Origin: Octopus sinensis
Taxonomy: Eukaryota
DNA: 6,715 nucleotides
Direction of reading: 5' to 3'
Assembly: GCF_006345805.1 (NCBI RefSeq)
Contig: NW_021828996.1
Coordinates: 1 to 6,715, forward strand
The translations under genes and the position numbers were made by a program. Numbering within the stretch: position 1 is the stretch's first letter; every line of letters starts with the position of its first letter. The notes beneath the pieces were generated by a model. It was not told the origin of the DNA, did not search any database, and saw only the letters and a list, made by a program, of their open reading frames with translations. Shown piece by piece: positions 1,721-6,715 of the stretch.

Positions 1721-1849
1721 GTGACGTATTTGCCATTTAAATATGGCTAACCCCTAAGGGTGGATGCTACTGTAGTTTGTAGCCACAGGAGGACACCTCC
1801 TCCAGCTGGCTTAGGGGTTAGCCATATTTAAATGGCAAATATACGTCAC
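1721..1849. repeat. Small inverted-repeat (fold-back/MITE-like) element
   Basis: Left arm 1721-1758 (GTGACGTATTTGCCATTTAAATATGGCTAACCCCTAAG) is the reverse complement of 1810-1849 apart from a 2-nt TA indel. Spacer is 51 nt. No clear TSD. Confidence 0.9.
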
Positions 1850-1901
1850 GATGTGTTGCAGCTACTGTTTATAACTTGCTCTAAGATTTATTATATATAT
1901 A

Positions 1902-2235
1902 TATCTGTAAAAGTAATATGTGACAATTATTCGGTAGCCATGATAAAACTCCGAGTTTCGGATGCCGAGGTGGAAATCTTACGCGAATACTATGAACATT
2001 TTTACCCCCTTACTTTTACTCCCTCCCCTCACCTAGCAGTCATTCAAATAACTCTTTTGTCTTAATAACGGTCAATCACACAGTAATTTCCCTTTGTATA
2101 ACAGTCATTTTTCATAGCATTTTTCCGATGGTCAGATAACTGAAGAGATGGCGGCGTGGGTTTCCACCTCAACATCCGAAACTCGGAGTTTTATCATGGC
2201 TACCGAATAATCATCACATATTACTTTTGCAGATA
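1902..2235. mobile_element. Inverted-repeat element with 75-bp arms carrying a hammerhead motif (Penelope-like/retrozyme-like non-autonomous element)
   Basis: 1902-1976 and 2161-2235 are reverse complements at 70/75 positions. The right arm overlaps the 3' half of the hammerhead motif. The inverted repeat is seen directly; the element class is inferred. Confidence 0.7.
2129..2202 (+). ncRNA. Type-I hammerhead ribozyme-like motif
   Basis: Stem I GATAA(2135-2139)/TTATC(2191-2195), extended by TGGTCA/TGGCTA with one bulged A. Core CTGAAGA at 2140-2146. Stem II GATG..GTGG-GTTT-CCAC..CATC with one extra C. GAAA at 2178-2181. Near-palindromic stem III ACTC-G-GAGT. Cleavage triplet GUU, cut after 2190. 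Confidence 0.7.
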
Positions 2236-2340
2236 AATTCCTCTATTTACATAATAGAGGTCATATTGAAGAGGGAAACAAGACTGTGGAGAGGAATTCC
2301 AAAATTTAGAGGAGCGAAGTAAGAAACTGGTACTGTAAAG

Positions 2341-2369
2341 TGCTTTACGATACTAAGTATCGTAAAGCA
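2341..2369. repeat. Perfect 29-bp palindrome (14-bp arms, 1-nt spacer)
   Basis: TGCTTTACGATACT-A-AGTATCGTAAAGCA; the arms are exact reverse complements. Confidence 0.95.
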
Positions 2370-2371
2370 GA

Positions 2372-2538
2372 ATAGGATTCTCTGAAAAAAATACAATTAC
2401 TGACTGGATTTCATGCCCCAAACTACAGGGTTAGGAGGCGTAAAATTTCGCGATATAATACTCTGTTCAGATTAAGTCTAAAAACAAAGCTAGGGCTTCC
2501 TTAATTTAATCTTCCATCATTTTCAAACGAACCAACAA
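2372..2538 (+). repeat. Direct repeat copy A (167 bp) of 3544-3713
   Basis: ATAGGATTCTCTGAAAA...TTTTCAAACGAACCAACAA. Differs from copy B by 3 substitutions, a 1-nt poly-A length change and a 4-nt (CAAA) indel. Confidence 0.95.
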
Positions 2539-2539
2539 T

Positions 2540-3165
2540 AATGAGAACTGGATGCAAGTCTAGTTGGTCGCTAATAAGTTCTTAAAGGGGAGAACCAGAG
2601 AAGAGAGCTCAGCTGAAAAATTTCCATGGAAATACTTATAGAAAAGAGACAAGGAAGCCACACGATGACGATGAGAGAGTGAATCCAATTTAGAAGATAG
2701 ATGAAGACGTTTGAAATATAGGTACAACTCATTTTTGCCAGCTGAATGGACTGGAGCAACGAGAAATAAAGTGTCTTGCTCAAGATCACAACACGACGCC
2801 AGTTATCGAACTCGCGACCTAATGGTTTTGAGCCGGCTACCCAAACCACTTAGCCATTAAATTTTACAAGCATACAGCAACGAAGACAAAACAGAGAATT
2901 GCAGACCTCCAATTTTGTCTCAATTGAGATTCTATGCTGAGACCATAGACATCTGTTCAATTGCTCCGAATGCATCACTGGCTTGCTTCATTCCGAGGGG
3001 GATTTCATCTTCAAAAGTATTTGTCGAAAAGAAAATAGCAAAATTGGTTTGATGAAAATGGTGAGGAAGTTTAAATACTATTAAACAAAGAGAATGTAGT
3101 GCTTAGTAGAGTCCTTAGGGGCAGGACCAGAAATGCTTAAGAAAGAAACCTTGTACAGGACAAAT
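2540..3165 (+). pseudogene. Highly decayed RTE-clade non-LTR retrotransposon ORF remnant (endonuclease-RT linker region), interrupted by a SINE
   Basis: Frame starting at 2976 reads HWLASFRGGFHLQKYLSKRK*QNWFDENGEEV*ILLNKE, resembling the RTE/BovB-type 'W..FR...RKHQDWFDEN.EI..LL.KK' motif. 2541-2585 reads MRTGCKSSWSLISS*, weakly like 'MRGADCWTDHRLI.SK'. Contains in-frame stops; boundaries are uncertain. Confidence 0.5.
2721..2857 (-). mobile_element. tRNA-derived SINE, 5' head plus conserved central domain (3'-truncated)
   Basis: Minus strand has A box TGGCTAAGTGG (2856-2846) and B box GAGTTCGATAAC (2813-2802). These are followed by ATCTTGAGCAAGACACTTTAT...TGCTCCAGTCCATTCAGCTGGCAAAAATGAGTTGTACC, which is CORE-like SINE body sequence. 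Confidence 0.8.
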
Positions 3166-3166
3166 A

Positions 3167-3168
<2 letters not shown>

Positions 3169-3222
<54 letters not shown>
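3169..3222. repeat. (GT)27 microsatellite
   Basis: Perfect dinucleotide run. Confidence 0.98.
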
Positions 3223-3224
<2 letters not shown>

Positions 3225-3241
3225 ATTAATGAGTACAGTAT

Positions 3242-3366
3242 CATATTTCCATTACGACCGATCTTAAAAGTTGGTTTCGCACTGGAGGGTTGAACATGAT
3301 GTTAGATAGCATCCTGATTATGCAACCCTGCGCTCTTCAGAGTTGGCAGTTACGGGAGAAAATATG
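3242..3366 (-). ncRNA. Type-I hammerhead ribozyme-like motif with long stem II
   Basis: On the minus strand: CTGAAGA (3340-3334); stem II GCGC/GTGC + AGGGTTG/CAACCCT + CAT/ATG + GATGCTA/TAACATC; GAAA (3278-3275); stem III ACC..CTT-TT-AAG..GGT; canonical GUC triplet (3258-3256). Proximal stem I pairs poorly, but distal CATATTTT/GAAATATG pairs. Confidence 0.65.
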
Positions 3367-3390
3367 GCGACTACTCTCTGTTATAAGGGA

Positions 3391-3515
3391 TGACTTTATG
3401 TTTCATTCTTTCGGAGTCGATGAAATTTGTACCAGTAAAAACCTGTGGTTGGTGTAATTGAATTAGGCCCTTTCTCACGATTTGCAAACCTTTTGTTAGT
3501 AATAGAAAGAATTAT
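3391..3515 (+). mobile_element. Diverged SINE body/3' fragment
   Basis: GACTTTATGTTTCATTCTTTCGGAGTCGATGAAATTTGTACCAGT resembles the 'GCCTTTCATCCTTTCGGGGTCGATAAA..AAGTACCAGT' conserved SINE domain I recall from octopus and other metazoan SINEs. It ends in an AT-rich tail and the head is missing. Confidence 0.6.
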
Positions 3516-3543
3516 AACACAGAACACACCTCAGGAACAGAGG

Positions 3544-3713
3544 ATAGGATTCTCTGAAAAAATACAATTACTGACTGGATTTCATGCCTCAAACTACAGG
3601 GTTAGGAGGCGTAAAATTTCGCGATATAATACTCTGTTCAGATTAAGTCTGAAAACAAACAAAGCTAGGGTTTCCTTAATTTAATCTTCCATCATTTTCA
3701 AACGAACCAACAA
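3544..3713 (+). repeat. Direct repeat copy B (170 bp) of 2372-2538
   Basis: Near-identical to copy A, 1172 bp downstream. Confidence 0.95.
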
Positions 3714-3989
3714 AAACCATAAAATCTTCAATCGAAATCGTGCATGTGTAGAGAGGAGAAGCCATGAATGTTATTAATAATATCGAATTAAGTATGCATG
3801 CGATTAAATTGTAAACACGATTTATTAAAAATGTATATTCGTGAAATGGCGATAAATGTTTATACACACACACGCGCACATATATATATATATATTCGTG
3901 CAAAGGAGATTTTCAGGCGAAAATGTGTGGAAGAATTGGTGGTGGGATGGGGGAAGCACCGTATATATTAAATTATAAATTAAATTAAA

Positions 3990-4005
3990 TGTGTGTGCAT
4001 GCGAT

Positions 4006-4085
<80 letters not shown>

Positions 4086-4466
4086 CATATATGTATATGT
4101 ATATATATTATGTATGCATATATGTATATGTATATATATATATGTATGCATATATATATATATATATTATATATATATATATGTACATACATACATACAT
4201 GAATGTTGTGGGTGTAGGTGTTTGTGTGTATGTGTGTCTATGATTCTGTATGTGGAGCTGTGTGCATGTGTCCGTGAGTGGATGTGTGTGTGTGTGTGAT
4301 TACGGTTCTCTGTGTGTGTGTTTGTGTATGTAATTGCGTGAGTGTATATGTGTGTATGCTTTTGCGTGTGCGATCCTGAGTGTGCGTTTGTGTCGTGTGT
4401 GTGTATGTGTGTATGTGTGTGTGTGTGTGTGCAATTCTATGCCTGTGTGTTTGCGATTCCGTGTGC

Positions 4467-4497
<31 letters not shown>

Positions 4498-5102
4498 TGT
4501 ATGTATGTATCTTTGTATGTGTGTATGTATGTATGTATGTATGTATGTATGTATGTATATGTATGTGTGTGTATGTATGTATGTATGTATGTATCTTTGT
4601 ATGTGTGTATGTATGTATGTATGTATGTATGTATATGTATGTGTATGTATGTATGTATGTATGTATGTATCTTTGTATGTGTGTATGTATGTATGTATGT
4701 ATGTATGTATGTATGTATGAATGTATGTATGAATGTATGTATGTATGTATGTATGTGTGTATGTATGTATGTATGAATGTATGTGTGTATGTATGTATGT
4801 ATGTATGTATGTATGAATGTATGTGTGTATGTATGTATGTATGTATGTATGTATGTATGTCTGTATGTATGTTGTGTGTATGTATGTATGTATGTATGTA
4901 TGTATGTATGTATGAATGTATGTGTGTATGTATGTTGTATGTATGTAGTATGTGGTGTATGTATGTATGTATGTATGTAGTAGTATGTATGTATGTGTAT
5001 GTATGTATGTATGTTATGTATGTATGTGTGTGTGTATGTGTATGTATGAATGTATGTGTGTGTATGTATGTATGAATGTATGTATGTATGTATGTATGTG
5101 TG
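3990..5102. repeat. Compound microsatellite: (AT)36, degenerate TG-rich tract, long (TATG)n array
   Basis: (AT)n at 4009-4080, imperfect TG-rich sequence at 4200-4468, and (TATG)n with variants at 4469-5102. Confidence 0.97.
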
Positions 5103-5273
5103 TATCAGCGTGGTTCACCCGACCACCTTCCATGCTAAACTCATTATTGTATATTAATTTATCCTCAATAAACATAATCAAGGGTCATAATGGAGAAACG
5201 GATTGTCACTTTTTGGTTTTGGTCTCCTATTGTAGAATTTTGTGGCAATTCTTCCGCTACAACAATGCACCCT

Positions 5274-5274
<1 letters not shown>

Positions 5275-5320
<46 letters not shown>
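5275..5320. repeat. (CA)23 microsatellite
   Basis: Perfect dinucleotide run. Confidence 0.98.
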
Positions 5321-5321
<1 letters not shown>

Positions 5322-5395
5322 CTGAGTTGGTGATGAGGAAATAATGTGTGAGTAGCAAACGTAAGGAATGAAAAGTGAGCGAAGCTGAACCTTTT

Positions 5396-5637
5396 TGTGT
5401 GTGTGTGTGTGTGTGTGTGAGTGTGTGTGTGTGTGTGCGTGTGTGTGCGTGGTGTGTGTGTGTGTGCTTGTGTGTGTGCATGCGTGTGTGTGCGTGTGCG
5501 TGCGTGTGTGTGTGTGTGCGTGTGTGTGTGTGTGTGTGTGCGTGCGTGTGTGTGTGTGTGTGCGTGCGTGTGTGTGAGTGTGTGTGTGTGCGTGTGTGTG
5601 CGCGTGCGTGTGTGTGTGTGCGTGCGTGTGCGTGTGC

Positions 5638-5673
<36 letters not shown>
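5396..5673. repeat. (TG)n/(TGCG)n compound microsatellite
   Basis: About 280 bp of almost uninterrupted alternating purine-pyrimidine repeat. Confidence 0.97.
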
Positions 5674-5674
<1 letters not shown>

Positions 5675-5676
<2 letters not shown>

Positions 5677-6087
5677 GGCTTTGCAGATAAATTGAGAGAC
5701 TAATTCTACGATGCATAAAACTGGTTATGAATTCTAAAATAATGGTGGTAGACATGTCCTGTAATATTTAGTACAACATTTATTATCACCCAATTTGGCC
5801 GCCCTTTCGGGCAATTACTGCCTCCATACGAGAACGGAAATTTTTTTTTTTTCAGTTGCTGCAACCTCCACCATTTTGTGTTGCACGGACGATGCAAATC
5901 TTCACACTGTTGGTACACGAGTGTAGTGAAGCATTGGTCCTTACTTGAAGTATACCCCATAAAAACTAATCGAGAAGGTTTAAGATCTGGGTTACTGCTG
6001 GGCCAGGTGTTGGCTCTCACAAAAATCAGCGCCTTCTCACCAAAGAAGGCTTGTGTTGCTTTTGACCTCAAGGCACGGTGCAGAAAC
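5675..6087 (-). mobile_element. 3' portion of a decayed Tc1/mariner DNA transposon (probably DD37D/maT family)
   Basis: Transposase remnant at 6087-5786 with AATAAA just after the stop. The putative terminus is TA|CGGGCTTTGCAGATAAATTGAG at 5673-5696 (TA target plus TIR-like end; partner TIR not seen). Truncated at a SINE junction. Confidence 0.8.
5786..6087 (-). pseudogene. Tc1/mariner transposase C-terminal pseudogene fragment
   Basis: Joining frames across frameshifts gives (V)SAPC(L)/RSKATQAFFGEKALIFVRANTWPSSNPDLKP/LD*FLWGILQVRTNASLHSCTNSVKICIVRA.../FRSRMEAVIARKGGQIG*. This matches the DxAPxH, WPxxSPDLNPLDY.LWG and terminal R..AVI..KGG motifs. Confidence 0.88.
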
Positions 6088-6275
6088 GCTTGACAATTGA
6101 TGTTGGTGTGTTTACGTCCCCGTAACTTAGCTGTTCGGTGAAAGACACCGATAAGATAAGCACTAGACATACAACAAATAAGTCCTGGGATCGATTTGTT
6201 CGACTAAAAAGCGGTGCCACAGCATGGCCGCAGTCAAATGGCTGAAACAAGTAAAAGAATAAAAGAAAAGAAAAA
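6087..6275 (+). mobile_element. 3' half of an octopus-type SINE with A-rich (TAAAAGAA) tail
   Basis: CGCTTGACAA..GTTTACGTCCCCGTAACTTAGC..GTCCTGGGATCGATTTGTTCGACTAA..CAGCATGGCCGCAGTCAAATGGCTGAAACAAGTAAAAGAATAAAAGA closely resembles a very abundant octopus SINE 3' region (from memory). The tandem A-rich tail is seen directly. Confidence 0.75.
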
Positions 6276-6294
6276 TAACATATATATAGGTATG

Positions 6295-6300
<6 letters not shown>

Positions 6301-6330
<30 letters not shown>
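6301..6330. repeat. (TAA)10 microsatellite
   Basis: Directly visible. Confidence 0.95.
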
Positions 6331-6331
<1 letters not shown>

Positions 6332-6434
6332 GGGTTAAATTAATTAATCAATTAATAATTAATAATTTTACCAAGTAGTTCGGTGTGTTAAAAGAACCAT
6401 TATCGGTAAACTTATACAAAAATTTTATAATTAT

Positions 6435-6586
6435 GAGCATAATTATAATTAGGGTTCAGTAGAATTTGCTTCACCACATACGGAAATTTAGAAATAGCAC
6501 TTAAAATACTACTACTATAATATATCTCCCAGACAGCAATACTCTACAACTCTAATTATTGCTGAACCCTAATTATAATTATGCTC
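6435..6586. repeat. Inverted repeat, perfect 25-bp arms, 102-nt spacer
   Basis: GAGCATAATTATAATTAGGGTTCAG (6435-6459) is the exact reverse complement of CTGAACCCTAATTATAATTATGCTC (6562-6586). Confidence 0.9.
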
Positions 6587-6655
6587 GACCTCGTGTGTAC
6601 CGTTGGCGATTTTTTTTCCTCTATCTTCCCTTCTCTGGATCTTTCCTTCTCCTAT

Positions 6656-6690
6656 GTTTCCGACGAAGAGCTCCGCTCGAAACGTTAAAC
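6656..6690 (+). ncRNA. Minimal (Penelope-type) hammerhead-like motif, core variant
   Basis: GTTT-CCGACGA-A-GAGC-TCC-GCTC-GAAA-CGTT-AAAC. Stem I is GTTT/AAAC, stem II is GAGC/GCTC, and palindromic AACGTT replaces stem III (dimer type). The core is CCGACGA instead of CUGANGA, with one extra A. Confidence 0.55.
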
Positions 6691-6715
6691 CCTCCTTCTT
6701 TCCTGAGTGTCCAAT

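What the first reader, a model, noticed from the sequence alone, without database searches (positions are those of the whole stretch)
2129..6690. Three to four unrelated hammerhead-bearing mini-elements in 6.7 kb suggest a very large, diverse ribozyme-retroelement population in this genome
Seen: the motifs at 2129-2202(+), 3242-3366(-), 6656-6690(+) and degenerate 6363-6412(-) share only the CYGANRA...GAA(A)...GUH layout. Stem II ranges from 11 to about 55 nt and the flanks differ. None has an ORF, most lie close to microsatellites, and two are linked to inverted duplications. Established: hammerheads occur in Penelope-like pseudo-LTRs and non-autonomous retrozymes. Inference: this density implies multiple high-copy, non-coding, ribozyme-terminated families, mobilised in trans by PLE RT/GIY-YIG proteins and perhaps targeting simple repeats. 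I cannot tell whether these particular families have been described.
Basis: partly seen in the sequence, partly recalled or inferred. Interest (0 to 1): 0.8.

Follow-up and report, generated by a model that had tools for sequence, protein, structure and literature searches.

The report
Penelope retroelement tails carrying hammerhead ribozymes
Three of the four motifs are the cut-off tail ends of three abundant protein-coding Penelope-type jumping genes, each with a small predicted self-cutting RNA (a hammerhead), and the fourth is no hammerhead but lies in a non-coding hammerhead-bearing repeat that likely borrows Penelope enzymes; both arrangements are already described in many animals.

Summary
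Mostly real, already a known kind. All four motifs sit in unrelated high-copy families. Motifs 1 and 3 are minimal type I hammerheads (motif 3 has the U4C variant). Motif 4 is not a hammerhead: 0 of 30 copies have the core. Motifs 1-3 are not non-coding mini-elements. Longer copies run upstream into Penelope-like (PLE) reading frames: two Hydra-clade families and one Neptune-type family. The window holds only their 5'-truncated ends. Motif 4 lies in the tail of a ~570-nt non-coding unit whose true hammerhead, about 200 nt upstream, is missing from this copy; that family is retrozyme-like. A 1.0-Mb genome sample gave 23 descriptor hits in 14 families against 1.15 in shuffles, roughly 27,000-74,000 insertions genome-wide, so the population is large and diverse. 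The window is a microsatellite-rich hot spot (2 intact hits, 0.15 expected). Massive PLE hammerhead populations (Cervera and de la Pena 2014) and an octopus Hydra PLE with a hammerhead (Craig et al. 2021) are published. The scan noted the same pattern in three other genomes. Best lead: a probably related 535-nt family with identical copies on ten chromosomes.

The parts
1978..2262 (+). Family H1: 5'-truncated 3' end (3' UTR/pLTR) of a Hydra-clade Penelope-like element
   Evidence: 93% identical over 287 nt to copy L028 and 88% to L233, which carries RT and endonuclease remnants upstream
2129..2202 (+). Minimal type I hammerhead of H1; core 2140-2146, GAAA 2178-2181, predicted cut after 2190 (GUU); palindromic helix III with 1-nt loop
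   Evidence: descriptor hit; core+III+GUH in 24 of 30 copies; 95.5% of stem cells paired, no covariation above shuffles
1899..1978 (-). Inverted 5'-truncated piece of the same H1 insertion (3' half of the hammerhead only)
   Evidence: such a piece in 12 of 30 H1 loci
3225..3393 (-). Family H2: old, 5'-truncated 3' end of a second Hydra-clade PLE, running into the (CA)n tract at 3222-3169
   Evidence: 77-81% identity to other copies; endonuclease followed by H2 end in 21 of 30 loci
3242..3366 (-). Decayed hammerhead of H2; core 3340-3334, GAAA 3278-3275; family GUA site mutated to UUA at 3267-3265
   Evidence: alignment, counts, pairs
6587..6715 (+). Family H3: 5'-truncated 3' end of a young Neptune-type PLE, cut off by the contig end
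   Evidence: 93-99% identity to the 39 other best copies; endonuclease end 1.3-2.0 kb upstream in L304, L320/L327, L329
6656..6690 (+). Minimal type I hammerhead of H3 (U4C core variant, extra base between 9 and 10.1), predicted cut after 6686
   Evidence: CYGANGA in 26 of 30 copies, CC form 23, CT form 3
6316..6552 (-). Family H4: 3' 40% of a ~570-nt non-coding unit; its true hammerhead lies about 60 nt beyond the truncation point and is absent here
   Evidence: 90% identity to L121 over 243 nt; unit and tandem period 555-596 nt
6363..6412 (-).
   Evidence: 0 of 30 copies with CYGANGA or GAAAC; folds as a plain hairpin, z -2.84
6554..6585 (+). Inverted 5' piece of the H4 insertion, abutting the H3 copy
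   Evidence: inverted piece in 13 of 30 H4 loci

Best explanation
The window is a microsatellite-rich spot holding the 5'-truncated 3' ends of three protein-coding Penelope-like retroelement families and of one non-coding ~570-nt family that is likely copied by Penelope enzymes; their minimal hammerheads are predicted to cut the precursor RNA, likely as dimers and only in long tandem transcripts. Shown: H1 and H2 are ends of Hydra-clade elements, H3 of a Neptune-type element; most copies are short, end in (TA)n and often (H1, H4) carry an inverted 5' piece. Inferred from established PLE biology: the GIY-YIG endonuclease nicks at simple repeats, the telomerase-like RT copies from the 3' end and usually stops early, so solitary hammerhead-bearing ends pile up by the ten thousand. 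Inferred: the solitary copies in this window are dead by-products (one decayed, one lacking its ribozyme, two single motifs with no partner in tandem). Inferred: H4 units longer than one monomer were copied from a tandem or circular RNA. Not shown: self-cleavage, circular RNA, or which PLE moves H4.
For: H1: endonuclease followed on the same strand by an H1-type end in 10 of 11 fetched loci of the 39-42% identity group (one match only 38 nt) and in the randomly sampled L233. L281 has a 698-residue open frame (P0002) with RWK, DKT, YKDD, CxCX5C, CxxC and CxH, the Hydra signature in PMC8557442 section 11; its model (pLDDT 92) has telomerase RT as best fold match (E 6.6e-10). H2: 21 of 30 endonuclease loci have the H2 end within 1.1 kb; its frame is 41% identical to P0002 over 256 residues. 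H3: L327 has DKG, YIDD, CX4CxxC and a GIY-YIG-type domain about 1.4 kb upstream of the end. H4: period 555-596 nt in 6 of 30 loci; at least 20 of 76 loci have the same tail-to-start junction, 34 of 76 reach the unit start; its hammerhead shows two-sided changes (17 cells against 7.8, 0 of 500 shuffles). Literature: most min-HHRs are solitary and probably truncated PLEs, pairs occur on opposite strands 100-700 bp apart, an unpaired base follows position 9, helix III is palindromic (PMC4209133).
Against: No covariation above shuffles in H1 or H2. Pfam gave no significant family for any of the frames (RVT_1 only E 0.19), so clade calls rest on motifs, a fold match and reading the paper's alignments by eye, not on a tree. 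Two of five extended H3 loci (L328, L330) showed no ORF. No H4 locus had two hammerheads head-to-tail in the 76 examined, which a monomer-release model wants. PLE minimal hammerheads cleave poorly in vitro, 8 of 9 Xenopus retrozyme dimers did not cleave, and U4C lowers activity.
Confidence: 0.88

Rival explanations
1. All four are independent non-coding, ribozyme-terminated families moved in trans.
For: No ORF in any window copy; H4 is such a family; the window H1 copy is only 77-80% identical to the end of the open-frame copy L281 but 92-93% to many short copies, so a short subfamily could exist; only best-scoring copies were seen.
Against: 5' ends of H1-H3 copies are ragged, and the longest copies run into RT/endonuclease frames; coding copies with ends 88-89% identical to the window H1 exist (L283, L290, L294). 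The two exact tandems seen (L014, L079) duplicate a truncated copy together with its (TA)n and look like local duplications.
Confidence: 0.08
2. The hammerheads are no longer functional in these families and ride along as neutral sequence.
For: No covariation excess in H1 and H2; U4C in 23 of 30 H3 copies and in the open-frame H1 subfamily; Naiad PLEs thrive without canonical hammerheads (PMC8557442).
Against: 14 sequence families keep core plus three stems; H4 and its 66%-identical sister family keep the core with different, complementary helix I sequences; H4 covaries. This argues for selection on master copies, not on each insertion.
Confidence: 0.25
3. The motifs are chance matches to a loose descriptor.
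For: True for motif 4; the loose layout gives 0.92 hits per shuffle; no Rfam hit.
Against: 23 hits against 1.15 in shuffled 1.0 Mb; cores conserved in 26-29 of 30 copies of H1-H3; position just 3' of PLE frames as published.
Confidence: 0.02

Closest known systems
Minimal type I hammerheads (min-HHR) in the pLTRs of metazoan Penelope-like elements (Cervera and de la Pena 2014, PMC4209133)
   Same: Thousands of mostly solitary motifs in many sequence families per genome; short or palindromic helix III; unpaired base after position 9 (H3, H4); opposite-strand pairs; place at the PLE 3' end.
   Different: Estimated number here (27,000-74,000 insertions) exceeds the 2,000-9,000 that paper gives for Schistosoma, coelacanth and Xenopus, with a different descriptor and a larger genome; helix II reaches about 55 nt in H2 and H4.
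Hydra-clade PLEs, including Hydra-1_Obim from Octopus bimaculoides (Craig et al. 2021, PMC8557442)
   Same: RWK, DKT, CxCX5C, CxxC/CxH, no CCHH, C-terminal endonuclease, (TA)n targets; Hydra-1_Obim has an annotated hammerhead with 1-nt loop III and GUU site like H1; its protein resembles P0002 and the H2 frame by eye.
   Different: The hammerhead sequences of H1 and H2 differ from that of Hydra-1_Obim; six short words from H1-H4 found no octopus entry in the supplement. They are sister families, not that family.
Neptune/Nematis-type PLEs
   Same: [quoted passage not shown]
   Different: A 1.3-2.0-kb CA-rich 3' region separates frame and hammerhead; Neptune versus Nematis not resolved without a tree.
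Animal non-LTR retrozymes (Cervera and de la Pena 2020, PMC7229834; bioRxiv 10.64898/2026.07.22.740005)
   Same: H4 is a non-coding, AT-rich, type I hammerhead unit found in more-than-unit tandems; the probably related L213 family forms arrays of up to four 535-nt units.
   Different: Longer than the 150-450-nt units of the 2020 paper (inside the 51-972 nt range of the 2026 preprint); minimal rather than canonical hammerhead; H4 itself never showed two hammerheads head-to-tail; circular RNA untested.

Membership tests
Type I (minimal) hammerhead, motifs 1 and 3 | CUGANGA and GAAA boxes, NUH site, helices I and II, helix III or palindrome | tested here: met
   deviations: bulged C in helix II of H1, U4C in H3
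Type I (minimal) hammerhead, motif 2 | same | tested here: inconclusive
   met by family copies such as L047; window copy has UUA and a broken helix III
Type I (minimal) hammerhead, motif 4 | C3-G8 pair and GAAA box | tested here: not met
   0 of 30 copies with CYGANGA, 0 of 30 with GAAAC
Type I (minimal) hammerhead, all | self-cleavage 3' of H17 | not testable with these tools
   needs in vitro transcription or RNA end mapping
EN+ Penelope-like element (H1, H2, H3) | telomerase-like RT followed by C-terminal GIY-YIG endonuclease in the same element as the end | tested here: met
   H1; H3; H2 endonuclease and RT C-terminal part only
EN+ Penelope-like element (H1, H2, H3) | 5' truncation, inverted 5' piece or partial tandem, hammerhead near the 3' end | tested here: met
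   inverted piece in 12, 2 and 0 of 30 loci of H1, H2, H3; ragged 5' ends
Hydra clade (H1, H2) | RWK, DKT, CxCX5C linker, CxxC and CxH, no CCHH, (TA)n targets | tested here: met
   P0002 has all; H2 frame has CxCX5C and CxH, N-terminal motifs not recovered
Hydra / Neptune clade assignment | placement in an RT tree with reference elements | not tested
   no reference PLE sequences were held as data; compared by motif and by eye only
Non-LTR retrozyme (H4) | non-coding unit with type I hammerhead | tested here: met
   longest stop-free frame 82 codons; hammerhead; no PLE frame continuous with the unit in 76 loci
Non-LTR retrozyme (H4) | [quoted passage not shown] | tested here: inconclusive
   0 of 76 H4 loci head-to-tail with two hammerheads, but only 3-kb loci of best-scoring copies were seen; met by the L213 family
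Non-LTR retrozyme (H4) | monomeric linear and circular RNA | not testable with these tools
   only assembled contigs were available

The most novel reading that the evidence does not exclude
This genome carries a whole lineage of 535-570-nt non-coding retrozymes (H4, a 66%-identical sister family, and the L213 family) that use minimal, PLE-type hammerheads and insert with PLE signatures at (TA)n, and one of them is moving right now: identical copies on ten chromosomes, as arrays of up to four units with an inverted partial array. With a near-intact Hydra PLE frame in the same genome, it would be a living system to test whether PLE enzymes copy circular retrozyme RNA in trans and what PLE hammerheads do in vivo.
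Probability: 0.5. Interest if true: 0.55.

Novelty: new member of a known kind. Interest (0 to 1): 0.3.

Why it matters
As a discovery it adds little: PLE ends with minimal hammerheads in large numbers are published for many animals, and one octopus family is already described. It matters modestly for annotation, because tens of thousands of such motifs in this genome escape Rfam. It matters more as a pointer to a very young retrozyme-like family, which could help with the open question of what PLE hammerheads do and whether PLEs mobilise retrozymes.

Tried and rejected
Rfam: no hammerhead in the window or in 8 loci at gathering score. Pfam and PDB sequence searches did not name the PLE frames. 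Expression: no RNA holder listed; four runs guessed to be RNA, contigs only, cover the H3 end deeply and the H4 unit thinly and patchily, with no pile-up of ends; contigs cannot show ends, strand or level, so this is no evidence either way. Parent of H4: none found; the PLE remnant beside H4 in L347 is an older element that H4 inserted into, joined through an inverted H4 piece. Tandems L014 (H1) and L079 (H3) rejected as retrozyme arrays. The 170-nt direct repeat around H2 is unique to this contig, so not a mobile family. Covariation tests on H1 and H2 were negative. A first two-sequence alignment was mis-anchored and unused. Flanks of the L219 and L213 family hits were not examined beyond those two loci, so their target sites and possible coding partners remain open. 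Dfam and Repbase were not available. Supplements of the 2026 preprint and of PMC13282606 were not seen and may list these families.
Full report
Setting. The window is the whole contig G000:C5467 of a 2.72-Gb genome. It is probably an octopus: this is my inference from genome size and from the closeness, read by eye, of the PLE proteins found here to Hydra-1_Obim. Perfect short repeats cover 15.9% of the window against a mean of 5.6% in 100 sampled stretches; 4 of 100 are as rich. No ORF in the window belongs to any of the four elements.

Observation. A descriptor that needs the CYGANGA and GAAA boxes, an NUH site and three stems finds motif 1 (cut after 2190) and motif 3 (cut after 6686); 0 of 500 block shuffles give two hits. 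Motif 2 has true boxes, but the alignment of 34 copies shows the family fold: palindromic helix III, GUA site, then helix I with a long extension. The window copy has UUA and a broken helix III, so it is a decayed copy, 77-81% identical to its relatives. Motif 4 lacks G8 and one A of the GAAA box in all 30 copies counted and folds as a hairpin. The four elements are unrelated.

Each motif is in a high-copy family. Searches gave 2251, 336, 1212 and 2000 first-look candidates, 40 scored each; these are lower bounds and favour copies like the query. 3' ends are sharp and run into (TA)n in 23, 16, 25 and 18 of 30 copies, against 12% of 2000 random 150-mers. 5' ends are ragged, and an inverted 5' piece occurs in 12, 2, 0 and 13 of 30 loci, as described for PLE insertions (PMC8557442 section 6).

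H1, H2 and H3 are ends of coding PLEs. For H2, four of 30 copies extended 640-1150 nt upstream into an endonuclease-like frame. Searching with that peptide, 21 of the 30 best loci had the H2 end on the same strand within 1.1 kb. For H1, the randomly sampled L233 has RT and endonuclease remnants upstream of the end. Of 15 further loci fetched, 11 were of the 39-42% identity group, and 10 of these 11 had an H1-type end downstream. L281 holds a 698-residue open frame, P0002, with RWK at 27, DKT at 104, YKDD at 336, CxCX5C at 547, CxxC at 650 and CxH at 681; these define the Hydra clade. Its 120 listed homologues share them (97, 112 and 120 of 120 for RWK, DKT, CxCX5C). The predicted structure (119 sequences, pLDDT 92) matches telomerase RT best. 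For H3, copies extend over a long CA-rich region to an endonuclease end (L304, L320), and L327 holds a frameshifted RT-endonuclease gene with DKG, YIDD and CX4CxxC, a Neptune/Nematis-type linker. Two of the five H3 loci extended showed no frame. Pfam named none of these frames.

H4 is different. It covaries (17 cells with two-sided change against 7.8, 0 of 500 shuffles; related sequences can inflate this). The window copy starts about 60 nt downstream of it. Further upstream the sequence returns to the family's own tail: period 555-596 nt in 6 of 30 loci. Among 76 distinct loci (of 90 fetched), 34 reach the unit start and at least 20 show the same tail-to-start junction; none had two hammerheads head-to-tail and none continued into a PLE frame. 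This is a non-coding unit copied as more than one unit, which fits a tandem or circular RNA template (inference; model in PMC4209133).

Population size. In 100 evenly spaced 10-kb stretches of chromosome-scale contigs (999,800 bases), the descriptor gave 23 hits in 16 stretches against a mean of 1.15 in 20 shuffles, in 14 sequence families. Merging one array and one inverted pair leaves 17 insertions, about 46,000 genome-wide (Poisson interval 27,000-74,000; background not subtracted, decayed copies not counted). The window's two intact hits compare with 0.15 expected (P about 0.01), so it is a hot spot, in line with simple-repeat targeting and with its having been picked for this. Published counts: about 2,000 min-HHRs in Schistosoma, 4,000 in coelacanth, 9,000 in Xenopus tropicalis, over 6,000 in 16 families in a coral and 126,247 in axolotl, 235 Rfam hits in giant squid.

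Mechanism. Shown: anatomy, linkage to frames, copy structure. From established PLE biology: endonuclease nick, reverse transcription from the 3' end, frequent 5' truncation and inversion. Inferred: the hammerhead trims tandem precursor RNA, as a dimer through its palindromic helix III; single truncated copies like these are inert. Against strong activity: low in vitro cleavage of min-HHRs, 8 of 9 inactive Xenopus dimers, U4C in H3, no covariation in H1 and H2.

Comparison with print. Cervera and de la Pena 2014 (PMC4209133; parts 1-2 of 4 of the text read) describe this phenomenon. Craig et al. 2021 (PMC8557442; passages, sections 6 and 11, three supplement searches) list Hydra-1_Obim with (TA)n preference and an annotated hammerhead of H1-like layout; the H1-H4 words were not found in an octopus entry. 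PMC13282606 (passages, section 6) counts 31 recently active Penelope-like families in O. vulgaris and does not mention ribozymes. PMC7229834 (passages) and bioRxiv 10.64898/2026.07.22.740005 (parts 1-3 of 5) cover animal retrozymes as PLE derivatives. PMC3088659, PMC6962438 and PMC8967140 were seen as passages. Searches for hammerhead with octopus or cephalopod found no study of this population; Dfam and Repbase could not be checked. Hammerhead position numbering (C3-G8, H17) is the standard one, partly recalled.

A lead outside the window. The random sample hit a 535-nt hammerhead unit in L213: 3.8 identical units head-to-tail plus an inverted 1.8 units, between (TA)n tracts. A 231-nt piece matched 33 of 40 scored places with full identity, on ten chromosome-scale and two small contigs, with arrays of up to four units (931 candidates). 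It aligns colinearly with H4 at 55% (score 84, shuffle maximum 69 of 200), a modest signal in AT-rich DNA; a second family (L219, 1896 candidates) is 66% identical to H4 over 526 nt. These look like one lineage of retrozyme-like units, one of them very young.

Verdict. Real for three of four motifs, correct about a large and diverse population, wrong that these are non-coding families in three of four cases. New members of a known kind; interest 0.3.

Noticed in passing
L213:2615-5580 (G000:C1:135002615-135005580): 535-nt non-coding hammerhead unit in a 3.8-unit array with an inverted 1.8-unit arm, flanked by (TA)n; identical copies on ten chromosome-scale contigs. Looks like a currently active retrozyme-like family.
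   Followed up: partly
L219:9190-9700: Sister family of H4 (66% over 526 nt) with the same core but different complementary helix I; 1896 candidates, many inverted pairs.
   Followed up: partly
L281:3054-6788 (G000:C3:18423054-18426788): Head-to-head pair of young Hydra-clade PLE copies; one has a 698-residue open frame; both hammerheads carry U4C.
   Followed up: partly
L304, L306, L312, L320 upstream of the H3 end: The H3 element carries a 1.3-2.0-kb internally repetitive CA-rich 3' region, so this PLE spreads microsatellite-like DNA itself.
   Followed up: partly
window 2372-2541 and 3544-3716: 170-nt direct repeat, 95% identical, 1.17 kb apart, found nowhere else in the genome search; it encloses H2 and other repeat fragments.
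   Followed up: partly
window 1725-1843: Short element with long terminal inverted repeats, MITE-like, next to a (TACA)n tract; about 5 matches in the 1-Mb sample.
   Followed up: no
window 6050-6270: Very abundant short repeat, about 100 matches in the 1-Mb sample, probably a SINE (label recalled).
   Followed up: no
window 6586/6587 and L099: H3 and H4 copies are joined head-to-head at their 5' ends here and again in an unrelated locus; probably shared target preference.
   Followed up: no
window 2560-2802 (-): 80-codon frame that reads like the C-terminal end of a LINE RT protein (resemblance recalled, not tested).
   Followed up: no
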